NCBI RefSeq assembly: GCF_009914755.1
Contig: NC_060936.1
Reading direction: 5' to 3' (one strand)
DNA: 64,000 bases
From: the human T2T-CHM13v2.0 reference genome, Homo sapiens
Made by a program: the position numbers and the translations under genes. Positions 20,883 through 56,045 of the stretch are shown piece by piece (position 1 is the first letter of the stretch; the number at the start of each line of letters is the position of its first letter). The notes under the pieces are model-generated. The model did not search any database. It was not told the origin of the DNA and worked only from the letters and a program-made list of their open reading frames with translations.

Positions 20883-21001
20883 CTAGGATTCACACGTATG
20901 CATTCTCCATTCTTGAGTCTCTACCTCCTTTATCAGACACAGCCCATCCTGCTTAGGAAAAGCCACACATTGTCTGGCGATGGGAAACCTTCTTTCATAG
21001 G
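20883..21001 (-). pseudogene. FAAH-like terminal exon (exon 15 equivalent)
   Basis: Acceptor ctcctttctcttctag; PMKEG/frameshift/PIARQCVAFPKQDGLCLIKEVETQEWRMHTCES* vs FAAH GMKKSVGLPVAVQCVALPWQEELCLRFMREVE. Confidence 0.88.
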
Positions 21002-21971
21002 CTAGAAGAGAAAGGAGATCAGGACTGTACAGCTACCTGACTTGAGTTCCGGCACCTTGTCTCCAAGACACATTCAATTCTGCCTCACTTGTATAGAATG
21101 GACTAGGTTTTAGGACAATGTATAGCAAATTTATTGATTTTATTGATTCTAAAATTTGAAAATCATTTAATATTTCAATTATGATATATTTATCTTCAAC
21201 TTGTTTCTCTTTCTCCCACAGAATCATCTAAAAGAGATTCGCAAAAAGATTAAATGAGTATCTTGAAATTATCTTAGCTACATTATCTATAGTTGAAATT
21301 TATATTTTGGATTTTAGCAAAGACTAAAGGTTACCATCTGCCTGTTTTTTGATCTTCCCTGTGGGATGAAGAGTTTAGGGAGAGAGATGGTCATGTTGCA
21401 GAATTGCTGGACTAAGTGTTAATGACAAGAGACCTTAACCAATATGAAATTTTTTGCAACGAGTTCCAGCCAAGAAAATGAAATTCTAGTTCAGGAGGTT
21501 GCTTCATCTGCCTCACACTAAATGACTGTTCACTTCTTCAGAGATGTTAACCCTTGTAATGTGAATAGATGCCATTGTTTGAAAGTAGTCATCTCTGACT
21601 TTGAGAGCTGATTTTATGACTCTAGGTTTTTAAAAACTTTTTCTAGTCTACTGTTCATTTTTCAAGATATTTCCTTAAAAATGTTGCCTATTTTAACTTT
21701 TTAGAATTAATGCTACTAAGACTATTTTATTCTTATTTTATCTTGTCATTTTATTATAATTCTTAATAATATTTTCTTTAATGTGCTTTTTCAATCTTCC
21801 AGATGGTGATATTTCTATCTCTTATTTATTCTTGGCTTACATTCCAAATCTTTCTCTTCATCTCATTTTCTAATCATTTTATTTTCAAGATTAAATTAGT
21901 CATGTGACATACTTTTATATAATTTCACCAAGTTAGTTTCTCTAGTCTTTTAAACAAATTTACACATTCTT

Positions 21972-22224
21972 TTATTATTATTATTATTATTTTTTATTAT
22001 TATACTTTAAGTTTTAGGGTACATGTGCACAACGTGCAGGTTGGTTACATATGTATACATGTGCCATGTTGGTGTGCTGCACCCATTAACTCGTCATTTA
22101 CATTAGGTATATCTCCTAGTGCTATCCCTCCCCCCTCCCCCCACCCCACGACAGGCCCCGGTGTGTGATGTTCCCCTTCCTGTGTCCATGTGTTCTCATT
22201 GTTCAATTCCCACCTACGAGTGAG
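21972..22224 (-). mobile_element. 5'-truncated L1PA4/5 3' end
   Basis: 17-bp TSD CAAATTTACACATTCTT at 21955-21971 and 22225-22241. Confidence 0.92.
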
Positions 22225-23664
22225 CAAATTTACACATTCTTAAACGTTAAGTTGCTCATATCTATTTATCTTTAACTGTCATTAGTCTATTCATATCAGG
22301 CAGCAGTATCTTCTCTTCACTAATAACTATTGGTTAATTTTAAACGTTTTGTTTATACCCTACGTATATTGCACCTTATTGTACCTATTTTCTTTAGTCG
22401 TAATGTTATCATTAAAATTGAGAAATGGTAAAAATAAGTTTATGCCCCATCTTACAGAATGTCAAGATGGGTTTCATGTGTTTGCTCTTCATGATGTCAT
22501 ATCCAGCACTATAAAGTAGGGACTGATAACCTGATATTCATTTACCCTTTTATTTAATCTGTGCAATCCAAAAGTGAAATTAACCCACAGGAGAAAATTA
22601 AGCCTAGAGTTAGCATAAGCTCCAACATAGTTGGAATTTTTTCCAGAATATACCATGGAGATATGCTTAAAAAAAGAGAATTTGAATAACACATGAGATA
22701 TCTTGAATACCATGGGCCTGCAATAGCTATCCATGTCTATCTATTTATCTATCTTTATTTAAAATTAATATAAAACATAAACATTTTTCAATACCAAGTT
22801 GATAAATTTTGTGGGATAAATATTTAACTGAAGGGCAGTTTCCCAAGCAAGTCCTTTCACTTTTCACTGTAGTTCTCCCTGGATACTAGACACTTGGCAA
22901 CAGGATAAAATTGTTTTATTGTATCGTTTGTTTTTTACTTACGGATTGGGACATGCTGATCCCTGCACCTTACGCTCAACTTTATATGGCTTCCGGAGTT
23001 AGCAGCCTATTTATTAAAAATATTGACGTTCCAAAAATTAATATTTAAAAATACTTCAAACGCATGTGTTTCAGGAGGTTCTTATTAAAGAAGATTCTAA
23101 AGAAAGGCTATTAATGAACCCAAACATTGGTTCTCTAATGTGTGGAGAGGTTATGGAGGGAGATAGAAAGGGTTGTCCATTAACAATAACAATGGCTTTG
23201 TGAAGGCTTGCCTATTGTTTTGTTATATCAAATACAATGAGAAATGTACCTTAAATCAGGACAAATATAAGTGTAACATAAAAGATTTGATGAAGCAAAG
23301 TTTTAATAATTGATCAGGTACAAAACTTTAATAACTTTCTTTTAACTTAAAATATGGAAAGTTAAGAATCCTAGAGATAACATTAGGTGATTCTTTTTCT
23401 AATAAACAGTCAAAGAAAAAAAGGTTGTTTTTACGATTCAATCCTTATTTGATCACAAAAGAAAATAACATTATCTTATAACACTGGCAAATATTTATGA
23501 TACTGTGGCTCAAAGGGACATGAAGGACAGAGAGAGGGTAAAGGTCATTAAATTGATCTCCCTTCAAATCTGGGAAAAGGTAGCAATATCCCTAACACCC
23601 AGGGCAAGAAATCCTTAAATAACCTTTTACATGTTGCCCAGTGCTCTCTAGTGGACTAACTCAC

Positions 23665-23810
23665 CTTCTGAAAAATCCTACTCCGAGAGTCATGGCAGTA
23701 ACCTTGGTATTGTTTCATCTCCTCCTCATCTTCCTCTGTCACTGTGCCAGTGGTGACAATTCCCGCAGGAAACTTTAGAATATTATATAGGTAAACATAG
23801 GATACAAAAC
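23665..23810 (-). pseudogene. FAAH-like exon 14 equivalent (146 nt, open, AG/GT intact)
   Basis: FVSYVYLYNILKFPAGIVTTGTVTEEDEEEMKQYQGYCHDSRSRIFQK vs FAAH AVSYTMLYNCLDFPAGVVPVTTVTAEDEAQMEHYRGYFGDIWDKMLQK; donor AAG/gtgagt. Confidence 0.93.
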
Positions 23811-24180
23811 CTAAAATCCAGTGCACAGACTCATCAGAAGTCCTCCAGATTTATCACTAGTATATTTCTCCCATTCTTCTACTCTTTCTCCTCTGCCTTC
23901 TACAACTCTAAGACTAGTGGCTTTATTTACATTTTACAGTGGACAAGAGGAACTTAATAAGGAGAAATGGTCCCTTCACTGAAGTTACCATAGTTGGGTC
24001 CAGAGTTCTCATCTCGTGTTCATACATCACCTCCACACTAAATAGTATCTTTAAATGTGTAGCAATTTTCACTCCTTAAGGACATTCACAGAAAATTAAC
24101 TCACTTTCAAATATTTACGTAACACTGAGATGTATCTTGTGGATATAATGTGAAAAAGGCATGGTGCTAAATTTCAGGTC

Positions 24181-25479: not shown

Positions 25480-25588
25480 CAAGGAGGTCTCCAGTGTAGC
25501 TTAGGTTGAAGGCTAGACACAAGACAGGACAGAGAATAACATTCAACTCCAAGGATTTCCATTTGCCAATGAATTTACACTGATAAAT
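25480..25588 (-). pseudogene. FAAH-like exon 13 equivalent (109 nt, open, AG/GT intact)
   Basis: IYQCKFIGKWKSLELNVILCPVLCLAFNLSYTGDLL vs FAAH VYRKTVIAQWRALDLDVVLTPMLAPALDLNAPGRAT. Confidence 0.9.
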
Positions 25589-27019: not shown

Positions 27020-27059
27020 CTTCAGAGCAACCTGTTGCTTCCAGAGTTTATTCATTAAC
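27020..27059 (-). pseudogene. FAAH-like exon 12 equivalent (40 nt; acceptor TG instead of AG)
   Basis: LMNKLWKQQVALK vs SAGKLWELQHEIE; donor AAG/gtaatt. Confidence 0.75.
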
Positions 27060-27405: not shown

Positions 27406-27449
27406 CAAATACCACAGCATTTACCTAAGAATTTGTTCATCCATGGGAA
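27406..27449 (-). pseudogene. FAAH-like exon 11 equivalent (44 nt; donor AT instead of GT)
   Basis: FPWMNKFLGKCCGI vs LPRLSAFLSNMKS; acceptor cctgctag; downstream atgagt; ends in phase 2, matching exon 12. Confidence 0.7.
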
Positions 27450-28751
27450 CTAGCAGGTGACAAAAGATTAGATTCATCAAGAAAAATTATAACTCTATCA
27501 AGAAAAGCACAGAGCCTATGTTGGGGCTTTAAATGACTTAAAGTAGATTATAAAATCTCTTTTATGATTAGTGTTATAATATTATAGCATTAGATTCGTT
27601 TATATAGTTTAAGATATATTAAAAGGAAACTAGGTAAATAAACATATTAGAAAAATATTCTCTATTTAAAACATTCATATATATTATACACATATAATAA
27701 TTTGTGTGTATATAATTTGAAAATTTTATATATATATATTACATATATAACACAAAGATTGCCTCTGATTACTAGTATTATAGGTAGTTTTCTTATCAAA
27801 TAAATTTTTTGCTTTTCTAATTTATCTGTAATGAACATGTAATACTTGTATAATAAAGGAAAAACTAGCCATTTAAAATGGTTTATTATAATTCCACTCT
27901 GGCCAAGACACATGTATATTTTAATATACATATATGCATATAATTTATACAAATTATATATGTATGTATTATGTATATATTGCTTCTATATGACTATGTA
28001 TATCTAATTTTTGTGTGTGTATATATATGTATATGAGCTACATATGGAAATTTTTTTTAGATGTTTAAGATCATGTAGTTCAATACTTGGTGCTGGGAAA
28101 TAAAAAAGGAAAAGAAAAGGAAAGCTCCTAGGGATCTGTGAGCTGAAATCTGAAGTTCTCACAGTGTTGGAATACATAGGACGTTCTAAATAGCTAAATG
28201 AGAGATACTTTGCTGAAAAATACAGTCACTTCAGTTGATATTGAAAGAAACTTAGGGAAGGACTTTTCAACCACTATAGTAATGGTTACTCTCTGAAAAT
28301 TCTAACAAAATTTAAGCACAAAATTCAAAAGGATAAGATTAATTGACCACAAAATTAACCATCTGTGAAATAAAAAAAAAAAAAAAGACAAAACAAAAAC
28401 CCAACTCTACTCTCTCTAGAAGAAGACACTAACTCCAGATTCTCAGTCCTCTGGTATCCATAATTTCTGGCAGACAATACAAAAAATCTACACACAAAAT
28501 GAAGCAGATAAATATAAGTAACTGAAGGAAGAGTTCAGTCAGCAGACAAAAACTCTGAGAGATGATCCAACTGCTGGAATTAGCAAGGATTTTAAATCAG
28601 CTAATTCAAAAGTGTTCAAGGACTTTAAAAAATGACCATAATAAATGAGCAGATGAGCATATGAGGGAATATTAGCAGAGATAGAGGGCCTATAGAAAGA
28701 ATCAAATTGAAATTCTAAAAGTAATAAAATATGTAAAATAAAAAAAAAATC

Positions 28752-31700
28752 CATTTAGTGCTATAAATTTCCCTCTTAACACTGCTTTAGCTGCTCCCAG
28801 AGATTCTGATATGTTGTCTTTGTTCTCATTGGTTTCAAAGAACTTGTTAATTTTTGCCTTAATTTCATTATTTACCCAGAGTCATTCAGGAGCAGGCTGT
28901 TCAATTTCCATGTAGTCGAATGGTTTTGAGTGGACTTTTTAATCTTGAGTTCTAATTTGATTATGCTGTGGTCTGAGAGACTGTTATGATTTCAGTTATT
29001 TTGCATTTGCTGAGGAGTGTTTTACTTCCAATTATATGATTGAATTTAGAGTAAGTGCCATGTGGCACTGAATAAAATGTATACTCTGTTGTCTTTGGTG
29101 GAGAGTTCTGTAGATATCTATCAGGTCCACTTGGTCTAGAGCTGAGTTCAAGTCCTGAATATTTTTGTTAATTTTCTGTCTCAATGATCTGTCTAATACT
29201 GACAGTGGGATATTAAAGGCTTCCACTATTTTTGTGTGGGGGTCTAAGTCCCTTTATAGGTCTCTAAAAATTTGTTTTATGAATCTGGGTGCTGTTGTAT
29301 TGGGTGCATATATATTGAGGATAGTTAGCTCTTCTTGTTGAATTGAACCCTTTAACATTATGTAATGCCTTTCTTTGTCTTTTTTGAGTTTTGTTGACTT
29401 AATGTCTATTTTGTCAGTAACTAGGATTGCAAACCCTGCTTTTTTCAGCTTTCCATTTGCATGGTAAGTTTTCCATCATCTCTTTATTTTGAGTCTATGT
29501 GCATCTTTGCACATGAGATGTGTCTCTTGAACACAGCACATAAATGGGTTTTGTCTTTGTATCCTGCTTGCCATTCTGTCTTTTAATTGGGGAATTGAGC
29601 CCATTTACACTTAAGGTTAATATTGTTATGTGTGAATTTGATCCTGTCATCATGATGTTGGCTGGTTAATTTGGCAGACTTGTTAATGTAGTTGCTTCAT
29701 AGTGTCATTGGTCTGTGTACTTCAGTGTGTTTTTGTAGTGGCTGGAAATGGTTTTTCCTATCCATGTTTAGTGCTTCCTTTAGGAGCTCTTGCAAGGCAG
29801 GTGGGGTGGTGACAAAATACCTCAGCATTTGCTTGTCTGAAAAAGATTTTATTTCTCTTTCGCTTCTGAAGCTTAGTTTGGCTGAATGTGAAATTCTGGG
29901 TTGGAATTTCCTTTTTTTTTTTTAAGAATGTTGAATATTGGCCCCCAATCTCTTCTGGCTTGCAGGGTTTTTGCTGAGAGGTCCTTTGTTAGTTTGATGG
30001 ACTTCCCTTTGTAGGTGACCTGGCCTTTCTCTCCTGCTGACCTTAACATTTTTTCCTTCATTTTGACCTTGGAGAATCTGATGATTATGTGTCTTGGGGT
30101 AGATCTTTTCCTTGATTATCTTGTTGGAGTTCTCTGGATTTCCTGAATGTGAATATTGGCCTGTCTTGAAAGATCTCAAATCAACAACCTAACATCACAA
30201 CTAAAACCTAACATCACAAAAGCAAACAAACCCCAAAACTAGCAGAAGACAAGAAATAACCAAGATCAGAGTAGAACTGAAGGAGATAGGGACATAAATA
30301 AAAACTTCCAAAATAATCAATGAATCCAGGAGCTGGTTATTCGAAAAAAATTAATAAAATTGATAGACCACTAATGAGACTAATGAAGAAGAAGACTGAA
30401 GATTCAAATAAACACAATCAGAAATGAGAAGTGGGATACTACCACTGACCCCACAGAAATAAAAACAATCATCAGAGACTACTCTAAATACCTCTATGCA
30501 AATGAATTGGAAAATCTAGAAGAAACAGATACATTCCTGGACACATAAACCTTCCCAAGACTGAACCAAGAAGAAGTTGAATCCCTGAATAGACAAGTTC
30601 TGAAATTGAGGCAGTAATAAATAGCTTACCAACCAAAGAAAAAGCCAAAGTCCAGATTGATTTACAGCTGAATTGTACCAGAGGTAAAAAGAGGAGCTGG
30701 CACAATTTCTTCTGAAACTATTCCAAATAATTGAAAGGGAGTTACTCCTCCCTAACTCATTTCATGAGGCCAGCATCATCCTAATACCAAAACCTGGCAG
30801 AGACAACAAGAAAAAAGAAAACTTCAGGACAATATCCCTGATGAACATTGATGCAAAAATCCTCAATAAAATACTGGTAAACCAAATTCAGCAGCACATC
30901 AAAAAGCTTATCAACCACGATTAAGTTGGCTTTATCCCTGGAATGCAAGGCTGGTTCAACATACACAAATCAATAAATGTAATTCATCATATAAACAGAA
31001 CTAAAAACAAAAACCACATGATTATCTCAATAGACACAGAAAAGGCCTTTCATAAAATTTAACATCCCTCCATGTTAAAAAACTCTCAGTAAACTAGGTA
31101 TTGAAGGAACATACCTCAAAATAATAATAGCCATTTATGACAAACTCACAGCCAATATCATACTGAATGGGCAAAAGCTGAACTCATTCCTCTTGAAAAC
31201 TGGTACAAGAAAAGAATACCCTCTCTCACCACTCTTATTCAACATAGTGTTGGAAGTTCTGGCCAGGGCAATCAGGCAAGAGAAAGAAATAAAGTGTATT
31301 CAAATAGTAAGAGAGGAAGTCAAATTATCTTTGTTTGCAGATGACAGGATCCTATATCCAGAATACCCCATTGTCTCAGCCCAAAAACTTCTTAAGCAGA
31401 TAAGCAACTTTAGGAAAGCCTCAGGATACAAAATCAATGTGCAGAAATCACAAGCATTCCTGTCCACCAACAACAGCAAAGCAAAAACCCAAATCACAAA
31501 AGAACTTCCATTCACAACTGCTGCAAAGAGAATAAAATACCTAAGAATACAGCTAACAAGGGAAGTGAAGCACCTCTTTAAGAACTACAGACCACTGCTC
31601 AAAGCAATCAGAGAGGACATAAGCAGATGCAAAAACATTCCATACTCATAGATAGAAAGAATCGATATCATGAAAATAACCATACTACCCAAAGCAATTT

Positions 31701-33300
31701 ATAGATTCGATACTATTCCCTTTAAACTACTATTGATATTCTTCACAGAATTAGAAAAAATTATTTTAAAATTCATATTGAACCAAAAAATAGCTAGAAT
31801 AGCCACATCCATCCTAAGCAAAAACAACAAAACTGGAGGCTTCATGCTACCTGACATCAAATGATACTATGAGGCCACAGTAACCAAAACGGCATGGTAC
31901 AGGTACAAAAACAGGCACATAAACCAATGGAACAGAATAGAGAGCTTATGAATAAAACCACACATCTACAACCATATGATCTTTGACAAACCATACAAAA
32001 ACAAGCAATGGAGAAAGGATTCCCTATTTATTAAATGGTGCTGGGAGAACTGGCTAGCCATATGCAGAAAATTGAAACTGGATGCCTTCCTTACATCTTA
32101 TACAAAAATTAACTCAAGATGGATTAAATATTTAAATATAAAACCCAAAACTATAAAAACCCTAGAAGAAAATCTAGGCAATACCATTTAGGACATAGGC
32201 ATGGACAAAAACTTTATGACTAAATCACCAAAAGCAATTGCAACAAAAGCAAATATTGACAAATGGTATCTAATTAAACTAAGGCACTCCTGCACAGCAA
32301 ATGAAACTGTCAGAGCAGACAGACAAGCCACAGAATGGGAGAAAATTTTTACAATCTATCCATCTGACAAATGTTTAATATCCAGAATCTATAAAGAACT
32401 TAAGCAAATTTAAAAGAAAAAACACAACCCCATTAAAAAGTGGACAAAGAATAAGAACAGACACTTCTCAAAAAACACATACATGCAACCAACACACGAA
32501 AAATAGTCCAAGATCACAGATCATTAGAGAAATGCAAATCAAAACCACAATGAGATAAATTCTCATGCCAGTAAGAATGACAATTATTAAAAATTCAGGA
32601 AATAACAGATGCTGGCGAGATTGCAGAGAAATAGGAACGCCTTTATACTGTTGGTGGGAATGTAAATTAGTTTAACTATTGTGGAAGACAGTGTGGCAAT
32701 TCCTCAGAGATTTAGAACTGGAAATACCATTTGGCCCTGCAATCTCATTACTGGGTATATACCCAAAGGAATATAAATCATTTTATTATACAGATACATG
32801 CACATGTATTTTCACTGCAGCACTATTCAGAATAGCAAAGACAAGGGATCAAACCAAATGCCCATCAATAATAGACTGGATAAAGAAAATGTGGTACATA
32901 CAAACTGTGGAATACTATGCAGCCACAAAAAGGAACAAGATCATGTCCTTTGCAGGGTCATGGATGAAGCTGGAAGCCAGTATCCTCACCCAGCAAACTA
33001 AGTCAGGAACAAAAAACCAACACCACATGTTCTCACTTATAAGTGGGAGCTGAACAATAAGAATACATAGACATGGTGGGAGAACAACACTTACTAGGGT
33101 CTATTGATGGAGGGAGGAGTGGGAAGTGCATTAGGGAAAAGAGCTGATGCATGTTAGGCTTAATACCTAAATAATGAGTTGACTAGTGCAGTAAACCACA
33201 ATAGCACATGTTTACCTATGCAACAAAACCTGCACACCCTGCACGTGTACCCTGGAACTTAAAAATAAATAAATAATTAATAATAAAATAAAATAAAATG
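28752..33300 (+). mobile_element. L1PA10-13-type element with 5' inversion (28752-30168 inverted; 30168-33300 forward)
   Basis: Minus ORF1/EN pieces followed by plus RT/C-terminal pieces and a tail; TSD core AAAAATCCA at 28745-28753 and 33301-33309. Confidence 0.88.
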
Positions 33301-35200
33301 AAAAATCCACTGGATAGCCTTAACATAAGATTGGATACAGAAGAAGAAAGAGTTGATAAATTCAAAGATTTATGAATAGTTCTTATCTATTCTGAACTGA
33401 AAAAATAAAGAAAGTAAAGCATCAGTAATATATAGAAATTTATTATGAAGTATATCATGTGTGTTGTGGAGTCTGAGAGGAAGAAGAAGAAGAAGTTTAA
33501 TATATACCTAAAGAAATAATGGTCAAAAATCGTCCAAACTTACTAAGAAAAATCCCAACTTATAAATACAGGAAGCATGTTGAACCTCAAAGTGTAAATA
33601 TAAAGAAAAATACCCTTAGGTACAATATAGTCAAACTGGCAAAATCCAAAGATAAGGGGAAAATTTTGAAAACATCTAGCAAGAAAAGATATATATTGCA
33701 TGCAGGAGAAAAACCATGCAAATTACAGCATACCTTAATAAGAAATAGTGTAGGTCAGAACATAATGGAATACCATTATTTAAGTACAGAGGATAGAGGT
33801 AATGAATTGGAATTGTGTGTTCAGTGCAAATATCCTTAAACCATGAGGGAAAATTTAAGACAGTTTTCAGATAAGAAAATTCAAAATTTTTAATTAACAG
33901 ATCTACAGTATAAGAAATATTAAAATGTATTGTTTCCAATGATGAACACTCACATATCATGAAAACCTGTATGTAGAGGATGGAATAAAGACCACCAGAA
34001 ATAGTGAATATATGAGTAAATATAAAAACTACATTTTTCTTCTTAGTTTCTTTAGAGGCCTAGTGACTTTTTAAAACAAAGATTTTAATAATCATTGCAG
34101 GGTTTAATATATATGTGTATATGTATATATGTATATCTCAATTTATTTGAAATAGCACAAGTATAGGGGATTAAAGCAAATGACACAATTGCCAGATTTT
34201 TACATTTCTTGTGAATTGGCATACTTATCAACTGTAAGTAGACTTTAAAAATTAAGGAGGCATATTCTAATCCTTAGAGCAACCAATAAAATAAAAAACA
34301 AAAGGGTAGAGCTTACAACCTCCTAAAAAAATTACAATAGAATTTGAATAAACATTTGTTTATGAGATGGCAAAATGAAATGAACAGAACAACAAACAGA
34401 TTTTGTGTTGAATGAACAGATGGAATAAATAAAAAGTAAACACCAAAATGGTCATTCTAAATTCAGACATATTCATAATTACATTAAATGTAAGTGAATT
34501 TAAAACTCCCAATTATAAGGCAGAGATTGTCAATTTGGATTAAAAAAGAAAACAACAGAGCTATGATCTATCAAAATCACTGCCTTGTTTTTTAGGACTG
34601 GTATAACCAAAATACCAAAACCTGATAAAGATGTTATAAGAAAAGAATATTTTTAAAAAATGTCATTTGCATAAATGTTAAAATTCTCAGAAAAATATTA
34701 GGAAATCAAACACAGTTTATATAAAATAAATAGTACATTACTATCAACTGGGATTTTATACAGAAAATTCAAAGCTGATTTATGTTTCAAAAAATGTAAT
34801 TAAGGAAACTGTATTACCCGGATAAAGAAGAAAGGTAAATATGATATTCTCAATAGATGAAGAAAAAAAATTTGGTAAATAAAAACTCCACTTTTGATAA
34901 AAAAAAATTCTCAGCAAATTAGAAATAAAAGGAAAAATGTTCAGCTTAATTAAGAATATCTATGACAAACCTGCAGCTAATATCATACTTAATAATGAAG
35001 TCATTAATATGCTTTCCTCAGAACAGGGCCAAAGCAAGGACGGCCATTTTTACTACTTGTATTCAACATTATACTGGCTGTCATAGCCAGTGAATACAAT
35101 AAGGCAAAAGAATAAAAAATAAAATAAATAGAAGGCATAATAGAAAGACAGAAGAAAACCTTTCCCATGAAATTATAATTAAATATGTAGATAATCTTTG

Positions 35201-36487: not shown

Positions 36488-36847
<360 letters not shown>

Positions 36848-37205: not shown

Positions 37206-37623
<418 letters not shown>

Positions 37624-41779: not shown

Positions 41780-43745
41780 ATAAAGGCAAAGTAATACTGC
41801 CCACTCATTCTACCAGGCCAGCATTATTTTAATACCCAAACCAGGCAAGGACATTACGAGAAATGAAAACCGTAGAGTAATATATCTCATAAACATAGAT
41901 GCAAAAAACTTCTACAAAATATTAGAAAATTAAGTCCAACACTGTATAAAAAGAATGATAAACTATGATCAAGTGGCATTTATCCTAAGTACGCATGATA
42001 GCTTCAACATCCACAAATCAATTAATGTATTGCATCATATCAACAAGCTAAAACAGAAAAATCACACGAACTTATCCACATATGTGAAAAAAGTATTTGA
42101 CAGACCCAACACCTACTTATGACAAAAACTATCAGTCAACTAGGAATACAGGGGAATTTCCTCAACTTGATTAAGAATATCTACCAAAAAAACTTTACAG
42201 CTAATATCATAGTTAATGGTAAGAAACTTAGAGCTTTCTAAGATCAAGAACAAGGCAGGGATGTCCTCTATCACCACTACTTTTCAACATTGTACTGAAA
42301 GTCCTAGCTAACTTGATTAGAGAAGAAAAGGAAATAAAAGGCGTACAGATTGGGAAGGAAGAAATAAAGCTGTGTTTGTCTACACTCTACAAGATCAACT
42401 TCATGGAAAATTTGAAGGAATTGAAAAAAAAACTTCTTGGAACTAATAAGCAATTATAGCAAGATTGCAGGATGCAAGGTTAGTATACAAGAATCAATCA
42501 CTTACCTTTATAACAAAAATAAATGAGTATAATTTGAAATTAAGACCACTTTACCACTTATGTTAGCACTCCTCCCAAAATAAAATACTTAGATATGAAT
42601 CTTACAAAACATGTATAAGAGCTATATGAGGAAAATTACAAAACTCTGATGAAAGATTTCAAAGAACTAAATATGTGGAGAAATATTTCATGATCATAAA
42701 TGGGAAGACTCAATATTGTCAAGATTTCGTATTTTACACCTTGATCTACAGATTCAAGCCAATTAAAAATCCCAGCAAGTTATTTTGTGGGTGTTTACAA
42801 GGTAATCCCAAATTTCATATGGGAAGGCAAAAGACTCAGAGTAGCCAACTGAATATTCAAGAGAACACGGTTGCCTCCATGTGATACTACATGACTGTAA
42901 GATTTCCTATAAAGCTATAGTAATAATGACAGCGTGGTATTGGTTGAAACCGACAAAATAGATAAATGGAGCAGAACTAAAAGCCTGGAAATAAATCTAC
43001 ATAAATAAAGATAACCAATCTTTGACAAAGAAACAAAGGCAATAAAATGAAGTTAAAGATAGACTTTTAACAAATGGTACTGGAACAACTGGATATATGT
43101 ATGCCAAAAAAAAAAAAAAATCCAGACACAGTTCTTACATTCTTCACAAAACATTGCTCAAAATGGACAAGGGACCTAAATGCAAAGTACAAAACTATAA
43201 AATTCTTACAAGATAACATAGAAGAAAATTAAGATGGCCTTGGGTTTGGTGATGACTTTTTGAATATAACATCAAAGACATGAGCTAATTGGTAAGCTGG
43301 ACTTTATTAAAAGCAAAACTTAATACTCTGTATAAGACAATTTCAAGAACATAAGAAAACAAGCCAAAGACTGGGAGAAAATATTAGCAAAGCACACATC
43401 TGATAAAAAAAAGTTATCTAAAATATACAAAGCCCTCTTAAAACTCAACAATGAGAAACAAACAACCAGATTAAAATATAGGGAAAAGATCTGAACAGGT
43501 ATGTCAGCAAGAAGATATAGAGATGACAAGGAAGCATATGAAAAGATGTTCAACATCATATGTCATTAGGGAATTATAAATTAAAACATCATTGAGATGC
43601 ACACCTATTAAAGAGAGCAATCTCCAAAACACTGAAAATACCAAATGCCAGCAAACACTCATTCATTAAAGGTGGGAATGGAAAATGATACAGATGTTTT
43701 GGAAGACAGTTTGGTAGTTTCTGACAGAATTATGTGTACTGTTAT
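41780..43745 (+). mobile_element. Old L1M (MB/MC-type) ORF2 fragment
   Basis: Degenerate RT (ggcagggatgtcctctatcaccactacttttcaac) through C-terminal region. Confidence 0.75.
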
Positions 43746-47400
<3,655 letters not shown>

Positions 47401-47404
47401 ATCC

Positions 47405-47716
47405 TTTATTTCAACCCATTATTTCAATCCTTTTAATGGCTGAGTAGTATTCCATGGTGTGTGTGTATGTGTGTGTGTGTGTATGTGTGTGTATATATAC
47501 ATACCACATTTCTTTATCTACTCATTAGTCAGTGGGTACTTAGGTTGGTTTCACGTCTTGGCAATTGTGAGTTTTGCCATTATAAACATACATGTGCAAG
47601 TGTCTATTTTATATAGTGACTTATTTTCCTTTGGGTAGATACCTAGTAGTGGGATTGCTGGATCAAATGGTAGATGTACTTTTAGGTCTTTAAGGTATCT
47701 CCATACTGTTTTCCAT
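47405..47716 (-). mobile_element. L1PB/MA fragment in opposite orientation, with a (TG)n tract
   Basis: ttttaatggctgagtagtattccatgg...ccatactgttttccat. Confidence 0.75.
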
Positions 47717-47720
47717 CAAG

Positions 47721-47945
47721 GTCCATGTCCATGTGTTCTCATTGTTCATGGACACAGGATTGGAACATCACACACTGGGGCCTGTCAGGGGGTGGGCCAC
47801 CAGGGGAGGGATAGCATTAGGAGAAATACCTAATGTAGATGACGGGTTGATGGGTGCAGCAAACCTCCATAGCACGGTATACCTATATAACAAACCTGCA
47901 CATTCTGCACATGTATCCTAGAACTTAAAGTATAATTTAAAAAAA
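47721..47945 (+). mobile_element. L1PA7-type 3' end with a 21-nt 5' micro-inversion
   Basis: gtccatgtgttctcattgttc is the reverse complement of the sequence preceding catggacacagg in L1. Confidence 0.82.
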
Positions 47946-48276
47946 GATATACAGATGGCAAATAAGCATATAAAAAGATGCTTCCCATCATATGTCATCA
48001 GGGAAAAGCAAATTAAAATTTATTATCTTTATTATTTATGTATTGATTTGGTAAGATATTGCTTTAAGAAAAGCTATTAGACTATAAGTGCCCCCAATAT
48101 TTATGTATGTTGCCTCAATGTTCAAAGCTTATCTTTTTTTTTAGCAAGTTGATCTGTGTCTTAACTTTAATTCTATGCTAATTAGAAAATCTAAGAGAAT
48201 AACTAAAAGAAAGGACAATTTACTCAGTCCATCAGTGGTAGTCATGGCAGGAAATAGAATGCACAAACTAATTATT

Positions 48277-48529
48277 GCCAAACGCCACATGTTCCCACTC
48301 ATAAATGGGAGTTGAACAATGAGAACAGATGGACACAGGGAGGGGAATATCACACACCGGGGCCTGTCGGGGGTTGGGGGGCTAGCGGAGGGATAGCATT
48401 AGGAGAAATACCTAATGTAGATGATGGGTTGATGGGTGCAGCAAACCACCATCATATGTGTATACCTATGTAAAAAACCTGCGAGTTCTGCACATGTATC
48501 CCAGAACTTAAAGTATAATAAAAAATAAA
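48277..48529 (+). mobile_element. L1PA7-type 3' end
   Basis: gggatagcattaggagaaatacctaatgtagatgatggg...cccagaacttaaagtataat. Confidence 0.88.
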
Positions 48530-50149
48530 GTCATGTAGAAAATGACTGCTATGAAAGAAACAATATAACTTATAATTCAATGGTTAATGTGATAGTAAAT
48601 ACATGGAAACGGAATTATAGAATTATAATATAGCAGATTCTATATTCAGGTACAGTTACTCTTTTTACTTGTAAAAATGGTGTAATCAAAGGAAATATTT
48701 TTATGCTATTTTTCTTAGTTTTTCATTTTCAAAGTCCCATTCCTAAATTACTACACTTACTGTACTAAAAATTCAAAACAAAAAATTGCTATGTACACAA
48801 AATATGAAAATTATCTGTAGATAAAATAGCTAGTTCATTAAGCGTCATTCCAATCATTTCAACCAGTAATGAAAATGCAATTACAATTTAATTTGTTTTA
48901 ATACCACCTTGCACTTCTTGGGCTGGAAAACACCATAAGGGAAGAAATCATATGTATCCTGTCTCCAGGGTCTACAATATTATGCTATTGAAATACTCAA
49001 TAAATATTTATTTAACAAAGAACATATTACAAGCATTATAGATTTTAACTACTTTCTCATTATGACACCAGTCTTATTTTTTCATTATTTAGATATCCAC
49101 ACAAATAATTCTTCCAGCATCCTGGTTTCTTGGTAACTTGACCTCCTTCCTTTTCTCCAAATATCTTGATCTCCATTATACCTTAGCTAACCACTCCCAC
49201 AGTCACACTCTTGAATGTGTCACTACCAATTACTGCACCCATTCCATAATCTCTGTTCTAAGCTTACTGTTCTTTGACTTTTACCTCCTATCTTTCTCTT
49301 AGCTCATTACTCTCACTAATACCTCGCTCCTACTATTTTTCAACTCTCCATCCAGTACACATAACCTATTGATTCTACCATCAATACACTGTCCCTTTTC
49401 ACCCTTATGTCCTCACTTGCCAAGTGACACAGCTTAAAATTCATAATATATCACTATAATAACTCCCTTTGATATATAATTTTAACCCCCTCACTTTGAC
49501 TTATTCTAGTAAAATTTAACTCTCTACCGGTTCTTACAAAATGCAGGTGAACATAGCTAGAGTCAAATATACAAATGCTTCATGTTCTCACTCTATAGAA
49601 TCATAATCACTTGTCACAAAAGGATTTTCAGTATCACCCCACAGCAATTGCATTACATTTGCTAATCAGTTCACTCTCCCACTTTGCCAAGCAATTCTTT
49701 TATGCATTCTCCTCTCTCTTCATACAACACTATCTCTCCTTTCTTTGCTCTCAGCTGATGACCTTGATTCCTATTTTCTTGAGAAAGCAGGGGAATAAGA
49801 AGAGAACTCTCACAGCCTCACATTTAAGTTTCACTTGCATCTGTGTTCTTTGACTATTCTTTGGGTCTTATTCAATTCACTACTATACTTCTATACTAGA
49901 TTTCATTCCCTTCTTATCTATGCAAGGACATTGCTTAAGTTACATTCTCATTCCTCTCCTTCTCCTTTCTCCTCCTATATCATCATATTTTTCTCTTTGT
50001 TCTGGCTGATTTGATTAAAATATATGCATTAATATGTTTAATCTTCCTATATTAGGAAAAAATGTTCTCGCAATCTCATATTCCTCCTCTACATACTAGC
50101 TTCTTTCTCTGCTTCCAGCAGAAATCTTTGAAAAAGTAGTTGACATTTA

Positions 50150-50199
<50 letters not shown>

Positions 50200-50444
50200 C
50201 TCATTCTTCTTTGAACTTACTCCAATTAGTTCTTTGTTCCCAGCATGGTGAAGAAATGACCAGTGACCTCTGCACTGATTAATCCAATGACCAATTCTCA
50301 GCTTTCATTCTACTAGACCTATCACCAGTTCATTGCTTCATTCTTCCTGATACAGTTTTCATTTAACCTCTAGGTCATTATATTTAAATTTGTTCCTTTT
50401 TGGTTTCCATTATTGGATTCTCCTTATCTTCCCTGTCTCCATAA

Positions 50445-50643
50445 GAGCTTCCCAGTAGATTATTCTGCATTATGAAAATGTTCAATAGTTCAATTCTCAG
50501 ATATGGTAGTTATTAGCCAGATGTGGCTATCAAGACTTGAAAAGTAACAATTGCACCAGAGGAACTGAAATTTCAACCTAATTTTAATTAATTTAAATGT
50601 TAACTTTTAGTAGCCACATCTGACTAATGCCGATCACAGCTCT
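50445..50643. mobile_element. MER3 (hAT-Charlie)
   Basis: tagccagatgtggctat...gaggaactgaaattt...tagtagccacat. Confidence 0.7.
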
Positions 50644-50801
50644 GTACTATTCCAGTCATTAGGCCTTGGAGCTTCCTTATCTATACTTAGTCCCTTACAA
50701 ATTACATTAATTTTCATACCTTTTAAGGGACGAAGTATAGATAAGAAAGCTCCAAGGCCTAATGACTGGAATAGTACAGAGCTGTTTTTTCACACCTTTT
50801 A

Positions 50802-52036
50802 TGCTGGGAAAACTGGCTAGCCATATGTAGAAAGCTGAAACTGGATCTCTTCCTTAAACCTTATACAAAAATTAATTCAAGATGGATTAAAGACTTACAT
50901 GTTAGACCTAAAAACCATAAAAACCCTAGAAGAAAACCTAGGCATACAATTCAGGACATAGGCATGGGCAAGGACTTCATGTCTAAAACACCAAAAGCAA
51001 TGGCAACAAAAACCAAAATTGACAAATGGGATCTAATTAAACTAAAGAGCTTCTGCACAGCAAAAGAAACTACCATCAGAGTGAACAGGCAACCTACAGA
51101 ATGGGAGGAAATTTTTGCAATCTACTCATCTGACACAGGGCTAATATCCAGAATCTACAAAGAACTCAAACAAATTTACAAGAAAAAAGCAAACAACCCC
51201 ATCAACAAGTGGGCGAAGGATATGAACAGACACTCTCAAAAGAAGACATTTATGCAGCCAAAAGACACATGAAAAAATGCTAATCATCACTGGCCATCAG
51301 AGAAATGCAAATCAAAATCACAATGAGATACCGTCTCACACCAGTTAGAATGGCGATCATTAAAGAGTAAGGAAACAACAGATGCTGGAGAGGATGTGGA
51401 GAAATAGGAACACTTTTACACTGTTGGTGGGACTGTAAACCAGTTCAACCATTGTGGAAGACAGTGTGGCGATTCCTCAAGGATCTAGAACTAGAAATAC
51501 CATTTGACCCAGCCATCCCATTACTAGGTATCTACCCAAAGGATTATAAATCATGCTGCCATAAAGGCACATGCACACGTTTGTTTATTGCGGCACTATT
51601 CACAATAGCAAAGACTTGGAACTAACCCAAATGTTCATCAATGATAGACTGGATTAAGAAAATGTGGCACATATACACCATGGAATTCTATGCAGCCATA
51701 AAAAAGGATGAGTTCATCCTTTTTTTGTGGGGACATGGTTGAAGCTGGAAACCATCATTCTCAGCAAACTATCACAAGGACAAAAAACCAAACACCACAT
51801 GTTCTCACTCACAGGTGGGAATTGAACAATGAGAACACTTGGACACAGGAAGGGGAACATCACACACTGGGGCCTGTTGTAGGGTTGGGGAAGCAGGGAG
51901 GGAAGGCATTAGGAGATATACATAATGTAAATGACGAGTTAATGGGTGCAGCACACCAACATGGCACATGTATACATATGTAACAAACCTGCACGTTGTG
52001 CACATGTACCCTAGAACTTAAAGTATATATAAAAAA
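50802..52036 (+). mobile_element. 5'-truncated L1PA5-type element
   Basis: ORF2 C-terminal ORF 50964-51272 and 3'UTR; TSD AATTTTCA(T/C)ACCTTTTA at 50709-50725 and 52035-52051. Confidence 0.92.
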
Positions 52037-53198
52037 TTTTCACACCTTTTAAACATAATCTATATGCTGATAACCCCCAATTTACATCTCCAGCTTGGAC
52101 CTCTCCCCTGACCTCCAAAACACTGCCTATTAGCTTTTCCACTTGCAAATCTAATAGGAATCATATACTTCACAAACATATCCAAAACTGATTTAGTGGT
52201 TCTGTAATCCTTCTCTTCCCGCTGTCTTCCCTATCTCTCAGTAAATTGCAACCACACCCCTCAAGATGCTTGGGCCAAGAACCCTGGAATTCTCCTTGAC
52301 ATCTGTCTTATTCCCATACCTTAATTACAATCCATCAGGACATCCTTTTGTTCTAGTAAAAATTAATAAGTGTTCCCACACTTTTCACCACTCCCATCAT
52401 CTCTTACCTAGATTATTGTAATAATCTCATAACTGGTATTTGCTTAAGCCCTTGACCCTTCCTCACCCTATATTCTCAACATAACAGCCAAAGTAATCGT
52501 TAAACACAAATCAAATCCTATTACTCCTCTGATCAAAATCTCTCAATAGCTTTCATAACACTTACAATAAAAGCCAATTTCTTCAAAATAGCTTTCAAAG
52601 CTCCACACAATCTAGCCTTCCTGATACTTCTCTCTTATCTCTTACTACTCTCCTATTTACTCATATTATAGTCCATCCATGCTGGCCTCCTTAATACTTT
52701 TTAAAAACATTACGCAAAGCATTTCCACAGGGCCTTTGCACTTGTCATTTGCTCTGCCTAGAGTAATTTTTACACAGTCAAGCTTATGGCTCATCTTCAG
52801 GCCTTAGAGATGTCAACAAGCCTTGCTTGTCCAATCTATTTAAATTTTCATCACTTTCTCTTTTCAAAGAGTTATCTCCTTAATTTTTTTCCTATAACAT
52901 TTACCATCACTGATATATTTGTTTGCTTATTGTCCATCTTGCCTCTGGTAGAATATAAGGTATAAAGGGCATATATTACTTATATCATTTATATTACCTA
53001 ATAGAGAACTTGGCAGAAGGTAAATATAACTCTGATATTTGATGTATAAACAAATTAATCAATTAATTGCTAATCAATGAAAAAATACCTAACCAAAAGA
53101 ATGGCATATAAAATTATTAGGGAAACGGTTTTTGTCTAATTAATAATCTACATTTGAGCTGACTCTTTTTATGGGCTAGAGTCATAGGAAATTAATTA

Positions 53199-53324
53199 TC
53201 TATGTCCTGCCTTCTCTAGTAGTTGCTTGATCTACTGGACAGCTCTTTTTATGTTGGGAGCTGGTTAGCTAAAACCATTTTATTCATAATAGCCAATGCA
53301 CAGGGCCTTGGATCTGAAGTACAT
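53199..53324 (-). pseudogene. FAAH-like exon 8 equivalent (126 nt; three stops, both splice sites damaged)
   Basis: MYFRSKALCIGYYE*NGFS*PAPNIKRAVQ*IKQLLEKAGHR vs VYTSSQPLRVGYYETDNYTMPSPAMRRAVLETKQSLEAAGHT. Confidence 0.9.
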
Positions 53325-54680: not shown

Positions 54681-54804
54681 CTCATCATTGAAGGAGAGAG
54701 GTGGCACTGAGGGATCTAGATGGTGCATTTCTGCACACAGCAATGCCTTCATGCACAGGGCCAGGCTGTCACATTTTTGGCTGCTGGCTGTAAGTTAGAA
54801 GTCA
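54681..54804 (-). pseudogene. FAAH-like exon 7 equivalent (124 nt; 1-nt deletion near 54771)
   Basis: TSNLQPAAKNV/DSLALCMKALLCAEMHHLDPSVPPLSFNDE vs RLSVGPMARDVESLALCLRALLCEDMFRLDPTVPPLPFREE; sites ttcactttcag and GAG/gtaagg. Confidence 0.93.
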
Positions 54805-55517
54805 CTGAAAGTGAAAGAATAAAATCATATTTAGATGTACCCTGGGAATGAGAAATAACCACTCCTGCTTCTGTTACTCCATGACCATCTCAAGAATTTT
54901 TAGGTTTTGGGAGGTGTTTTAAAAAATGTCCCTCGGTTATTTTCCATTACAGAAAAAAGTAACTTCTTGGGCAATCATACCAAATTCCATATGCTTTGTC
55001 TGAACATTTTTAGTCTGCCCAAGTGCATGTTCTAGGTGTTCTTTTATTCTTCTCCTACTTGAAATGTTATTTTGAGGATCACTGATCCAGAAAACAGTTC
55101 CTGATTAAGCTCATTTGTTAACAATATCACTAATGTACCTTAAAATTCTATGATAATGAGTATCATCACTGTACTAAAGCTCAAACTCAATCCATTATCA
55201 ACTTCTATCCTGCAAAAGTACAGGACATATTTTCATAAAGAGGGTGAGTTGATATGGTTGTTTCCAGATTCTGTGATATTCTAAATTCTCTTTAGTCATT
55301 CCATTTATATATACTGAATACCTGTTATGGATCAGATACTCAGATAGAGACTAGGGATACAGGAATAAATCAAAGTACAGAGATAGAAGCATGCCAGGAA
55401 GCAGATAATCACATTATGACAAAAATCACTGCCTTGAAGAGCAAGCACATAGGAGAGCCTCCCTACTCAGATCTTGTGGAGCAAGTCAAGAAACCTTTCC
55501 TGGAAGAGCTACTCTTT

Positions 55518-55890
55518 TTTTTTTTTTTAAATCAGTCACACTTTATTTTAAAATCTATTCTCTATTTTATTTTATTTTATTATTATTATACTTTAAGTTT
55601 TAGGGTACATGTTCATCCATGTCCCTACAAAGGACATGAACTCATCATTTTTTATGGCTGCATAGTATTCCATGGTATATATGTGCCACATTTTCTTAAT
55701 CCAGTCTATCATTGTTGGACATTTGGGTTGGTTCCAAGTCTTTGCTATTGTGAATAGTGCCGCAATAAACATTTATGCAGCCAAAAAACACATGAAAAAA
55801 TGCTCACCATCACTGGCCATCAGAGAAATGCAAATCAAAACCACAATGAGATACCATCTCACACCAGTTAGAATGGAAATCATTAAAAAG
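55518..55890 (-). mobile_element. L1PA3-type mini-insertion with 3' transduction, internal deletion and 5' inversion
   Basis: TSD TCCTGGAAGAGCTACTCTTT at 55498-55517 and 55891-55910. Confidence 0.9.
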
Positions 55891-56004
55891 TCCTGGAAGA
55901 GCTACTCTTTAACTTTTTATAGAAGTTTAAGATGTGTGTGGCTGTACAGGCTGACTTCATATTGATTTTTTAGATACAAAACTTAAAACAGGCAAAGGGA
56001 CTTA

Positions 56005-56045
56005 TAGTTTTCACGCCTGCCAAGGGACCAGTGATACTGAGCATA
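56005..56045 (-). pseudogene. Probable FAAH-like exon 6 equivalent (41 nt; splice sites damaged)
   Basis: MLSITGPLAGVKT; expected size, phase and position upstream of exon 7; followed by taagt, preceded by GG. Confidence 0.5.

What the first reader, a model, noticed from the sequence alone, without database searches (positions are those of the whole stretch)
20883..56045. Hidden intron-containing FAAH/VDHAP-like amidase gene fossil, possibly a lost lipid-amide hydrolase
Seen: eight minus-strand exons at 56005-56045, 54681-54804, 53199-53324, 27406-27449, 27020-27059, 25480-25588, 23665-23810 and 20883-21001. None appears in the ORF track. Their translations line up in order with the C-terminal half of FAAH (DSLALCMKALLC..LDPSVPPL, IGYYE, SY..LYN..FPAG, QCVA.P.Q..LCL). 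Knowledge (recalled): the sizes 41/125/126/41/40/109/146 and the intron phases match FAAH exons 6-8 and 11-14. The observed sizes are 41/124/126/44/40/109/146. Divergence from FAAH is deep (~19/30 identities in the best block), and residues such as DSLALCMKALLC look more like bird/fish VDHAP-type paralogues. Inference: this is an ancient genomic paralogue rather than a retrocopy, and may be a unitary pseudogene of an amidase-signature (endocannabinoid/N-acylethanolamine-type) enzyme that is still functional in other vertebrates.
Basis: partly seen in the sequence, partly recalled or inferred. Interest (0 to 1): 0.92.

Follow-up and report, generated by a model that had tools for sequence, protein, structure and literature searches.

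The report
Dead third FAAH-family gene relic
This stretch of human chromosome 12 holds the decayed, intron-containing remains of a third FAAH-type lipid-amide hydrolase gene; its closest intact relatives are in horses, rhinos and shrews, so humans have most likely lost an enzyme those animals still make.

Summary
Seven of the eight minus-strand exons are clearly homologous to FAAH-family proteins. They are collinear and share FAAH's intron positions. The eighth (56005-56045) is only tentative.

The gene runs past the finding and the window. A degraded exon 3, and possibly exon 2, lie about 9-10 kb beyond the window end.

I could not detect exons 4-5, which encode the catalytic Ser-Ser core, nor exons 9-10 or exon 1. 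The retained exons carry stop codons, frameshifts and broken splice sites, so the gene is dead.

It is not FAAHP1, not a retrocopy, and probably not a recent copy of FAAH.

Its closest intact relatives are eutherian proteins that NCBI names "vitamin D3 hydroxylase-associated protein-like":
- donkey, 66% identity over 262 aligned residues
- rhinoceros, 63-67%
- human FAAH, 47%
- human FAAHP1, 44%

A maximum-likelihood tree puts the relic inside that eutherian clade with 100/99 support. The best reading is a unitary pseudogene lost long ago on the human lineage.

Synteny with the horse and rhino genes could not be tested here. Chicken VDHAP itself sits beside DMBX1, which matches the position of FAAHP1 rather than this locus.

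RefSeq annotates nothing here and I found no paper on it. This is a new member of a known kind, of moderate interest.

The parts
56005..56045 (-). Tentative relic of exon 6 (41 nt; MLSITGPLAGVKT). The acceptor reads GG instead of AG, and the donor is reduced to 'taagt'.
   Evidence: It is the top-scoring site for the donkey and rhino exon-6 peptides in the 18-kb interval between exons 3 and 7 (25 against 19, and 23 against 18). However, 11-16% of shuffled peptides reach that score. The codon phase fits exon 7. MAFFT instead placed it over the GPMARDV segment, so its assignment is ambiguous.
54681..54804 (-). Exon 7 relic (124 nt). It reads VTSNLQPAAKNV in one frame, then DSLALCMKALLCAEMHHLDPSVPPLSFNDE in another. 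A 1-nt deletion near 54770-54773 causes the frameshift. The AG acceptor and GT donor are intact.
   Evidence: Profile E=4e-14. PDB rat FAAH E=4e-7. Identity to rhino is 30/38 and to donkey 29/38. DNA alignment to FAAHP1 shows GT-GA against GTGGA and a coinciding GAG|gtaag donor.
53199..53324 (-). Exon 8 relic (126 nt; MYFRSKALCIGYYE*NGFS*PAPNIKRAVQ*IKQLLEKAGH). It has three in-frame stops, at 53282-53280, 53267-53265 and 53234-53232. The acceptor AG has become AA and the donor is lost.
   Evidence: Profile E=2e-11. Identity to rhino is 28/43. Sequence read.
27406..27449 (-). Exon 11 relic (44 nt against 41 in FAAH; FPWMNKFLGKCCGI followed by two stops). The AG acceptor is present; the donor GT has become AT.
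   Evidence: Identity to donkey FPRLAKFLDKTCGI is 9/14. BLOSUM score is 47 against a next best of 25 in 27.6 kb, and 0 of 300 shuffles reach it.
27020..27059 (-). Exon 12 relic (40 nt; LMNKLWKQQVALK). The acceptor AG has become TG; the donor GTAAT is intact.
   Evidence: Identity to rhino VKKLWKQQYALK is 9/12. Score is 48 against a next best of 21, and 0 of 300 shuffles reach it. DNA alignment to the FAAHP1 exon ends at the same |gtaat donor.
25480..25588 (-). Exon 13 relic (109 nt; IYQCKFIGKWKSLELNVILCPVLCLAFNLSYTGDLL). The frame is open, with AG and GT intact.
   Evidence: Profile E=3e-9. Identity to donkey is 26/36.
23665..23810 (-). Exon 14 relic (146 nt; FVSYVYLYNILKFPAGIVTTGTVTEEDEEEMKQYQGYCHDSRSRIFQK). 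The frame is open, with AG and GT intact.
   Evidence: Profile E=2e-13. Identity to donkey is 31/43. The CAGAAG|gtgag donor coincides with FAAH's. A search of 1.84 billion representative proteins gave 97 hits at E<=1e-3. All those I inspected are FAAH/VDHAP-type proteins or fragments.
20883..21001 (-). Terminal coding exon 15 relic (YERRFPIARQCVAFPKQDGLCLIKEVETQEWRMHTCES, then TAG). It has two in-frame 2-codon deletions relative to donkey and rhino.
   Evidence: Profile E=3e-3. Identity to rhino is 21/33, including the C-terminal TQEWR motif shared with rhino and not seen in the other sequences compared. The acceptor coincides with FAAH's.
27450..53198 (-). A 25.7-kb interval where exons 9 and 10 should lie. 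Neither is detectable. The interval is largely filled with L1 3' fragments and Alu elements.
   Evidence: There is no collinear hit in profile or sensitive tblastn searches. Repeat families D2-D19 look like L1 and Alu; I assigned them by eye.
56046..64000 (-). The in-window part of the 17-kb interval (up to 73062) where exons 4 and 5 should lie. These encode the amidase-signature core with both catalytic serines. Neither is detectable.
   Evidence: A Pfam Amidase scan of the whole genome gives no chr12 hit. Profile and tblastn searches find nothing collinear. The one candidate, at 62727-62813, is L1 ORF2 sequence.

Best explanation
The locus is a non-processed, most likely unitary, pseudogene. 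It is the decayed human copy of a eutherian FAAH-family amidase gene. NCBI calls the intact versions 'vitamin D3 hydroxylase-associated protein-like' in donkey and other equids, white rhinoceros, shrews and hedgehog.

The ancestral gene had FAAH's 15-exon layout. It encoded a roughly 595-aa Ser-Ser-Lys amidase with an N-terminal hydrophobic segment. By homology it was presumably a hydrolase of fatty-acid amides, but its substrate is unknown.

On the lineage to humans the gene died and has since drifted neutrally.
- Exons 4-5 (catalytic serines), exons 9-10 and exon 1 are gone or unrecognisable.
- Exons 3, 7 and 8 carry frameshifts and stops.
- Several splice sites are broken.
- The introns have swollen with L1 and Alu insertions, so the relic now spans more than 52 kb. 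The detected coding exons of FAAH span about 9 kb.

Shown: homology, exon structure, the disabling lesions, and phylogenetic placement among intact eutherian genes.

Inferred: orthology (synteny was not tested), the great age of the loss, and the absence of any present function.
For: - **Homology and collinearity:**
- **Intron positions shared with FAAH and FAAHP1:**
- **Lesions:** three stops in exon 8, a 1-nt deletion in exon 7, and frameshifts and stops in exon 3. In one reading the codon aligned to the catalytic Lys reads AAT.
- **Missing catalytic exons:**
- **Closest relatives:** donkey P0275 150/212 (70.8%) and rhino P0274 153/229 (66.8%) over six exons. Over all aligned columns, identity is 172/262 = 65.6% to donkey, 46.6% to human FAAH and 43.9% to FAAHP1. 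Sauropsid and amphibian VDHAP-likes give 53-60%.
- **Careful ML tree:** the clade (Sorex x2, Ceratotherium, Equus, relic) has support 100/99. The relic's terminal branch is 0.68, against 0.043 for donkey.
- **The donkey protein looks functional:** it aligns end to end with rat FAAH (E=4e-190) and keeps the K, S and S motifs.
- **No closer human locus:** searching the whole human genome with the donkey protein finds only FAAH, FAAHP1 and this locus as close matches. That search ran with reduced sensitivity.
- **Names and species of relatives:**
Against: - Synteny of the horse, rhino and shrew genes with the SYT10/ALG10 region could not be checked. The relic could therefore be a paralogue of those genes rather than their ortholog.
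- The AU test did not formally reject a tree that forces the relic together with the FAAHP1 clade (delta lnL 23.8, p=0.066).
- The relic is a long branch covering only 44% of the alignment columns. Its position inside Perissodactyla, next to donkey (88/83), is surely an artefact.
- Exons 6 and 2 are only tentative.
- I could not see GENCODE/Ensembl pseudogene tracks, so it may already be annotated there.
- I examined no transcription data.
Confidence: 0.8

Rival explanations
1. It is a duplicated (non-unitary) pseudogene: a DNA-level copy of FAAH or FAAHP1 that moved to chr12 and decayed. In that case no gene was lost from the human repertoire beyond those two loci.
For: All three human loci share the same exon structure. 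The AU test does not quite reject relic+FAAHP1 as one clade (p=0.066). All three rows are long branches.
Against: The relic is only 44-47% identical to FAAHP1 and FAAH, but 66% identical to donkey. FAAHP1 has its own intact mammalian relative, P0061, with support 100/98. The relic shares clade-specific motifs with perissodactyls, such as PSVPPLSFNDE and TQEWR.
Confidence: 0.08
2. The relic is an older paralogue of the horse/rhino/shrew genes. Those genes lie elsewhere in their genomes, and their human orthologue has been deleted without trace. On this reading the chr12 relic has no intact orthologue anywhere.
For: Synteny was not tested. Sauropsids and amphibians carry several tandem VDHAP-like copies, so hidden paralogy is possible.
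Against: The relic nests within the eutherian clade at 100/99, not outside it. No further FAAH-like locus was found in the human genome, though that search ran with reduced sensitivity. The 66% identity is about what a long neutral branch from a shared eutherian ancestor would give (my rough estimate).
Confidence: 0.1
3. The relic still does something as RNA, for example as a lncRNA that regulates neighbouring genes, as FAAH-OUT (FAAHP1) regulates FAAH.
For: The precedent of FAAH-OUT (PMC10473560). Two exons, 13 and 14, remain open with intact splice sites.
Against: RefSeq annotates no gene or lncRNA in the window (program note in the finding). Exon 1 and any promoter were not found. Most splice sites are broken. 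No functional FAAH-family gene sits nearby to be regulated.
Confidence: 0.03
4. It is a processed retrocopy, or a chance resemblance.
For: None beyond the shortness of individual exons.
Against: The exons are spread over more than 52 kb, with AG/GT boundaries at FAAH's intron positions. Per-exon profile E-values go down to 4e-14, and all exons are collinear on one strand.
Confidence: 0.01

Closest known systems
Eutherian 'vitamin D3 hydroxylase-associated protein-like' genes (Equus asinus P0275, Ceratotherium simum P0274, Sorex P0305/P0344, Erinaceus P0036)
   Same: Same clade in the tree (100/99). Identity is 63-71% in the retained exons. They share motifs such as PSVPPLSFNDE and the C-terminal TQEWR. 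The exon order is the same.
   Different: The donkey and rhino genes encode complete 595-aa proteins, and the donkey protein keeps the Lys/Ser/Ser catalytic motifs. The human locus lacks the catalytic exons and is riddled with stops and frameshifts. Whether these genes lie at the syntenic position is untested.
FAAHP1 / FAAH-OUT (human chr1, next to FAAH)
   Same: Also an intron-containing, decayed FAAH-family gene in the human genome with the same exon layout.
   Different: It is a different chromosome and a different clade: FAAHP1 pairs with P0061 at 100/98. Identity to the relic is only 44%. FAAHP1 retains nearly all exons, is annotated, and is transcribed as a regulatory lncRNA (PMC10473560). 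By position next to DMBX1 it matches chicken VDHAP.
FAAH (FAAH1), the anandamide hydrolase
   Same: Amidase-signature family. Intron positions are shared, and there is recognisable homology across the C-terminal half.
   Different: 47% identity. FAAH is intact and functional, spans about 9 kb for exons 3-15, and belongs to a separate tetrapod FAAH1 clade.
Classical human unitary pseudogenes such as GULOP and the urate oxidase pseudogene (from general knowledge)
   Same: A single-copy enzyme gene that is dead in humans but intact in other mammals, with missing exons, stops and frameshifts in place.
   Different: For those genes, the synteny, the timing of loss and the physiological consequence are established. 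Here none of these is.

Membership tests
FAAH subfamily of the amidase-signature (AS) family | Significant sequence homology to FAAH-type proteins | tested here: met
   Profile E-values of 4e-14 to 3e-3 for five exons. PDB rat FAAH E=4e-7 for one exon. Pfam's Amidase model does not reach these C-terminal exons.
FAAH subfamily of the amidase-signature (AS) family | AS signature with the Ser-Ser-Lys catalytic triad (rat FAAH K142, S217, S241) | tested here: not met
   The exons encoding both serines (exons 4-5) are undetectable. In the degraded exon 3, the codon aligned to the catalytic Lys reads AAT in one plausible alignment. The locus descends from the family but cannot encode an active member.
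FAAH subfamily of the amidase-signature (AS) family | FAAH-type gene structure (15 exons, conserved intron positions and phases) | tested here: met
   Donor and acceptor sites coincide with FAAH and FAAHP1 for exons 7, 12, 14 and 15. Exon sizes are 124/126/44/40/109/146 nt.
Unitary pseudogene | Non-processed structure with disabling mutations | tested here: met
   Introns are retained. There are three stops in exon 8, frameshifts in exons 3 and 7, broken splice sites and missing exons.
Unitary pseudogene | No functional parent copy in the same genome from which it was recently duplicated | tested here: met
   Whole-genome searches find only FAAH (47% identity) and FAAHP1 (44%) as relatives, though the donkey-protein search ran with reduced sensitivity. 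Both fall in other clades. The AU test against FAAHP1 is borderline (p=0.066).
Unitary pseudogene | Intact orthologue in other species at the syntenic locus | not testable with these tools
   Intact closest relatives exist and cluster with the relic. No vertebrate genome other than the human one could be read, so their chromosomal neighbourhood is unknown.
Processed pseudogene (retrocopy) | Intronless copy of the mRNA, often with a poly(A) tail | tested here: not met
   The exons are spread over more than 52 kb, with splice-site remnants at FAAH's intron positions.
FAAHP1 / FAAH-OUT | Locus immediately downstream of FAAH on chr1 | tested here: not met
   FAAHP1 maps to C1:46301117-46322531. 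This locus is on chr12:33.75-33.80 Mb.

The most novel reading that the evidence does not exclude
Eutherians ancestrally had three FAAH-type amidases: FAAH, the FAAHP1/VDHAP-type gene, and this chr12-type gene. The third survives only in scattered lineages (seen here in perissodactyls and eulipotyphlans). It was lost very early on the line to primates, and this locus is its unannotated relic. If so, the surviving enzyme would be an unstudied mammalian lipid-amide hydrolase. Species would then differ in their set of targets for FAAH inhibitors.
Probability: 0.55. Interest if true: 0.5.

Novelty: new member of a known kind. Interest (0 to 1): 0.4.

Why it matters
It adds a second dead FAAH-family gene to the human genome, beside FAAH-OUT. 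It also points to an uncharacterised intact enzyme in horses, rhinos and shrews.

For endocannabinoid and N-acyl-amide biology, this means the number of FAAH-type hydrolases differs among mammals. That bears on comparing lipid-amide metabolism and FAAH-inhibitor selectivity across species.

For genome annotation, it is a candidate unitary pseudogene in a stretch that RefSeq leaves empty. It does not change what is known about any working human gene.

Tried and rejected
- **Pfam on the exons.** The Pfam Amidase scan of the genome and of the exon peptides found nothing on chr12. The model does not cover the retained C-terminal exons well, so this is not evidence against homology.
- **First tblastn of FAAH-locus pieces.** It was swamped by Alu and L1 translations, so I moved to protein queries.
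- **First hmmalign of concatenated pieces.** It misplaced the N-terminal exons. I replaced it with MAFFT --addfragments.
- **Two of three protein searches.** The queries P0065 (newt) and P0089 (bird) returned only sauropsid and amphibian proteins. Only the hedgehog query P0036 revealed the eutherian relatives.
- **Candidate exon 4/5 at 62727-62813.** Rejected as L1 ORF2 sequence.
- **Candidates for exons 9-10 at 32898-32948 and 33120-33164.** Weak and not collinear, so rejected.
- **Exon 1.** Not found up to 60 kb beyond the window.
- **ESM Atlas search on P0029.** P0029 is a sister-group sequence of unknown species. The search gave no useful taxonomy.
- **Paper searches.** Searches for VDHAP, FAAHP2/FAAH3, and unitary pseudogene plus FAAH found nothing on this locus.
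- **AU test against a FAAHP1 grouping.** Borderline, p=0.066.


Full report
**1. The observation**

I read the eight claimed minus-strand exons directly.
- DSLALCMKALLCAEMHHLDPSVPPLSFNDE at 54681-54770
- ...IGYYE*NGFS*... at 53199-53324
- FVSYVYLYNILKFPAG... at 23665-23808
- ...QCVAFPKQDGLCL... at 20886-20999

The exon at 54681-54804 alone matches rat FAAH in the PDB at E=4e-7.

Stop-to-stop pieces of the human FAAH locus hit the window at 54669-54770 (E=2e-9) and 53202-53339 (E=1e-10).

A profile of 107 full-length FAAH/VDHAP-like proteins was searched against the six-frame translation of the window plus 60 kb beyond it. It gave collinear minus-strand hits:

| Coordinates | E-value |
|---|---|
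| 54657-54782 | 4e-14 |
| 53184-53327 | 2e-11 |
| 25475-25594 | 3e-9 |
| 23665-23811 | 2e-13 |
| 20913-20987 | 3e-3 |
| 73060-73134 (outside the window) | 6e-4 |

The two tiny exons at 27406-27449 and 27020-27059 are each by far the best match to the donkey or rhino peptide in the 27.6-kb interval between their neighbours. Their scores are 47 and 48, against next-best scores of 25 and 21, and no shuffled peptide out of 300 reached them.

The exon at 56005-56045 is also the best site in its interval. However, 11-16% of shuffles do as well, so I call it tentative.

**2. Gene structure**

DNA alignments of each exon plus flanks to FAAH and FAAHP1 show the similarity ending at the same donor sites. 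This holds for exon 7 (GAG|gtaag), exon 12 (|gtaat) and exon 14 (CAGAAG|gtgag), and at the acceptor of the last exon.

Running the same profile on the FAAH/FAAHP1 region gives FAAH's exon series. In FAAH's 15-exon numbering the relic keeps:
- exon 3 (window-equivalent 73063-73189, that is chr12:33,801,063-33,801,189)
- exon 6 (tentative)
- exons 7, 8, 11, 12, 13, 14 and 15
- perhaps exon 2 (about 73,69x-73,737; ILSMSLL/ELAA against ILSLSLLELSE with one frameshift)

This structure excludes a retrocopy.

**3. State of the gene**

The gene is dead.
- Exon 8 has three in-frame stops and a mutated acceptor.
- Exon 7 has a 1-nt deletion (GT-GA against GTGGA in FAAHP1).
- Exon 3 needs at least two frameshifts and contains stops. 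In one alignment the catalytic lysine codon reads AAT.
- Several splice sites are lost.

Exons 4 and 5 encode the amidase-signature core with both catalytic serines. Three searches failed to find them: the whole-genome Pfam scan, the profile and sensitive tblastn with the donkey and rhino proteins. Exons 9, 10 and 1 were also not found.

The one apparent candidate for exons 4/5, at 62727-62813, is L1 ORF2 sequence.

The 26-kb gap between exons 8 and 11 is full of L1 and Alu fragments.

**4. What it is related to**

A search of 1.84 billion representative proteins with exon 14 returned FAAH/VDHAP-type proteins and fragments. Three word-indexed searches supplied names.

Amphibian, reptile and bird 'vitamin D3 hydroxylase-associated protein(-like)' proteins are 53-60% identical to the relic over six exons.

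The decisive result came from the hedgehog query. It revealed eutherian proteins of the same name in Ceratotherium simum (P0274, 595 aa), Equus asinus (P0275, 595 aa, a cluster of 11 members), Sorex fumeus, Sorex araneus and Erinaceus europaeus (low quality).

Over six exons the relic is 70.8% identical to donkey (150/212) and 66.8% identical to rhino (153/229). It shares specific motifs with them, namely PSVPPLSFNDE and the C-terminal TQEWR.

Identity over all aligned columns:

| Relic compared with | Identity |
|---|---|
| Donkey | 65.6% (172/262) |
| Human FAAH | 46.6% |
| Human FAAHP1 | 43.9% |

A careful ML tree (55 rows, 587 columns, LG+C20+F+G4) gave these results:
- The clade (two shrews, rhino, donkey, relic) has ultrafast bootstrap/SH-aLRT support of 100/99.
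- FAAHP1 pairs with a different intact mammalian protein (P0061) at 100/98.
- Human FAAH sits with tetrapod FAAH1 sequences.
- The relic's terminal branch is 0.68 changes per site, against 0.043 for donkey.

The relic's exact position beside donkey is not credible in detail, because it is a long branch with 44% column coverage.

An AU test that forces the relic together with FAAHP1 and P0061 costs 23.8 log-likelihood units. Its p-value is 0.066, so that alternative is disfavoured but not formally rejected.

**5. The intact relatives look functional**

The donkey protein aligns end to end with rat FAAH (E=4e-190). It keeps the VSLKE lysine, the GGSSSGEGALI serine motif and the GSD.GGSIR.PS serine. 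By homology it is a Ser-Ser-Lys amidase. Its substrate is unknown.

**6. Genomic context and the VDHAP name**

A whole-genome search with the donkey protein finds only FAAH, FAAHP1 and this locus as close matches. That search ran with a stricter first look, so weak matches may have been missed.

ALG10 lies at chr12:33,900,287-33,904,368, about 99 kb from the relic's exon 3.

Chicken VDHAP is reported on chicken chromosome 8 next to DMBX1 (PMC13700731, Table 4). In the human genome an OAR-domain match, of the kind DMBX1 carries, lies 67 kb beyond FAAHP1. The match is weak (E=0.008), and the identification with DMBX1 rests partly on my recollection of the gene order.

So chicken VDHAP proper appears to be the positional counterpart of FAAHP1, not of the chr12 relic. 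How the chr12-type eutherian lineage relates to the two sauropsid VDHAP subclades is unresolved in the tree (support 60-68).

**7. Age of the loss (rough inference)**

Donkey and rhino differ at 11.4% of residues. I used recalled values: divergence times of about 55 My for equids and rhinos and about 90-95 My for human and horse, and a human-lineage neutral divergence of about 0.15 per site.

With those values, the roughly 34% difference between relic and donkey is about what fully neutral drift along almost the whole human branch would give. The many lesions and missing exons point the same way.

The loss is therefore probably ancient and shared well beyond humans. This needs other genomes to test.

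Among the 120 best relatives of the hedgehog protein, the only other mammals were a rhinoceros, an equid cluster and two shrews. This hints at patchy retention.

**8. Novelty**

RefSeq annotates nothing in the window (program note in the finding). I found no paper on a chr12 FAAH-like relic in the library searched. I could not consult GENCODE.

It is a new member of a known kind, a unitary-type pseudogene. The side observation that some eutherians retain a third FAAH-type enzyme gives it moderate interest.

**9. Limits**

- No vertebrate genome other than the human one could be read, so synteny, shared lesions and dN/dS were not tested.
- For the phylogeny I built a joined translation of the relic inside scripts, with X at stops and breaks.

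Noticed in passing
G000 chr1:46301117-46322531 (loci L015-L017), outside the window: FAAHP1 (FAAH-OUT) groups at 100/98 with an intact mammalian protein, P0061, whose species I could not identify. It lies between FAAH and an OAR-domain (DMBX1-like) match at chr1:46389626. Chicken VDHAP is reported next to DMBX1 on chicken chr8. FAAH-OUT therefore looks like the dead human counterpart of the VDHAP-type gene, not a recent FAAH duplicate.
   Followed up: partly
G000 chr14:29953616-29954730; chr1:221495927-221496769; chr1:167803264-167804649 (loci L001-L003, L005, L006): Long, single-block Amidase-domain matches with internal stops, far from any of the four amidase genes. They look like processed pseudogenes, possibly of QRSL1. 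I did not check the parent gene.
   Followed up: no
window 30600-33300, 42100-43600, 45300-48500, 50800-52050, 55770-55890, 62727-62813, 8968-9048: Multiple L1 fragments (ORF2-like translations and 3' ends) fill the relic's introns. One of them mimicked an FAAH exon in tblastn.
   Followed up: partly
window 14290-14600, 25680-25940, 36470-36800, 37190-37510, 44240-44550: Alu elements. They dominated the first translated comparison with the FAAH locus, which is also Alu-rich.
   Followed up: no
window 35333-35850: An AT-rich tandem array built on TATATCGATATA-like units, about 0.5 kb long, inside the large intron.
   Followed up: no
G000 chr12:33900287-33904368 and chr12:38266645-38270730: ALG10 and its duplicate ALG10B match the ALG10 family almost equally well. 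By my recollection of the centromere position they lie on either side of the chr12 centromere. Only the ALG10 side has the FAAH-like relic nearby; the donkey-protein search showed no second copy.
   Followed up: partly
proteins P0029, P0002, P0006: These three partial FAAH-family proteins share the motif LSVQCVALPYQDELCLRLM. P0029 and P0002 were in the tree and fall as a weakly supported sister group (65/74) to the eutherian chr12-type clade. Their species could not be determined, so it is open whether the lineage predates eutherians.
   Followed up: partly
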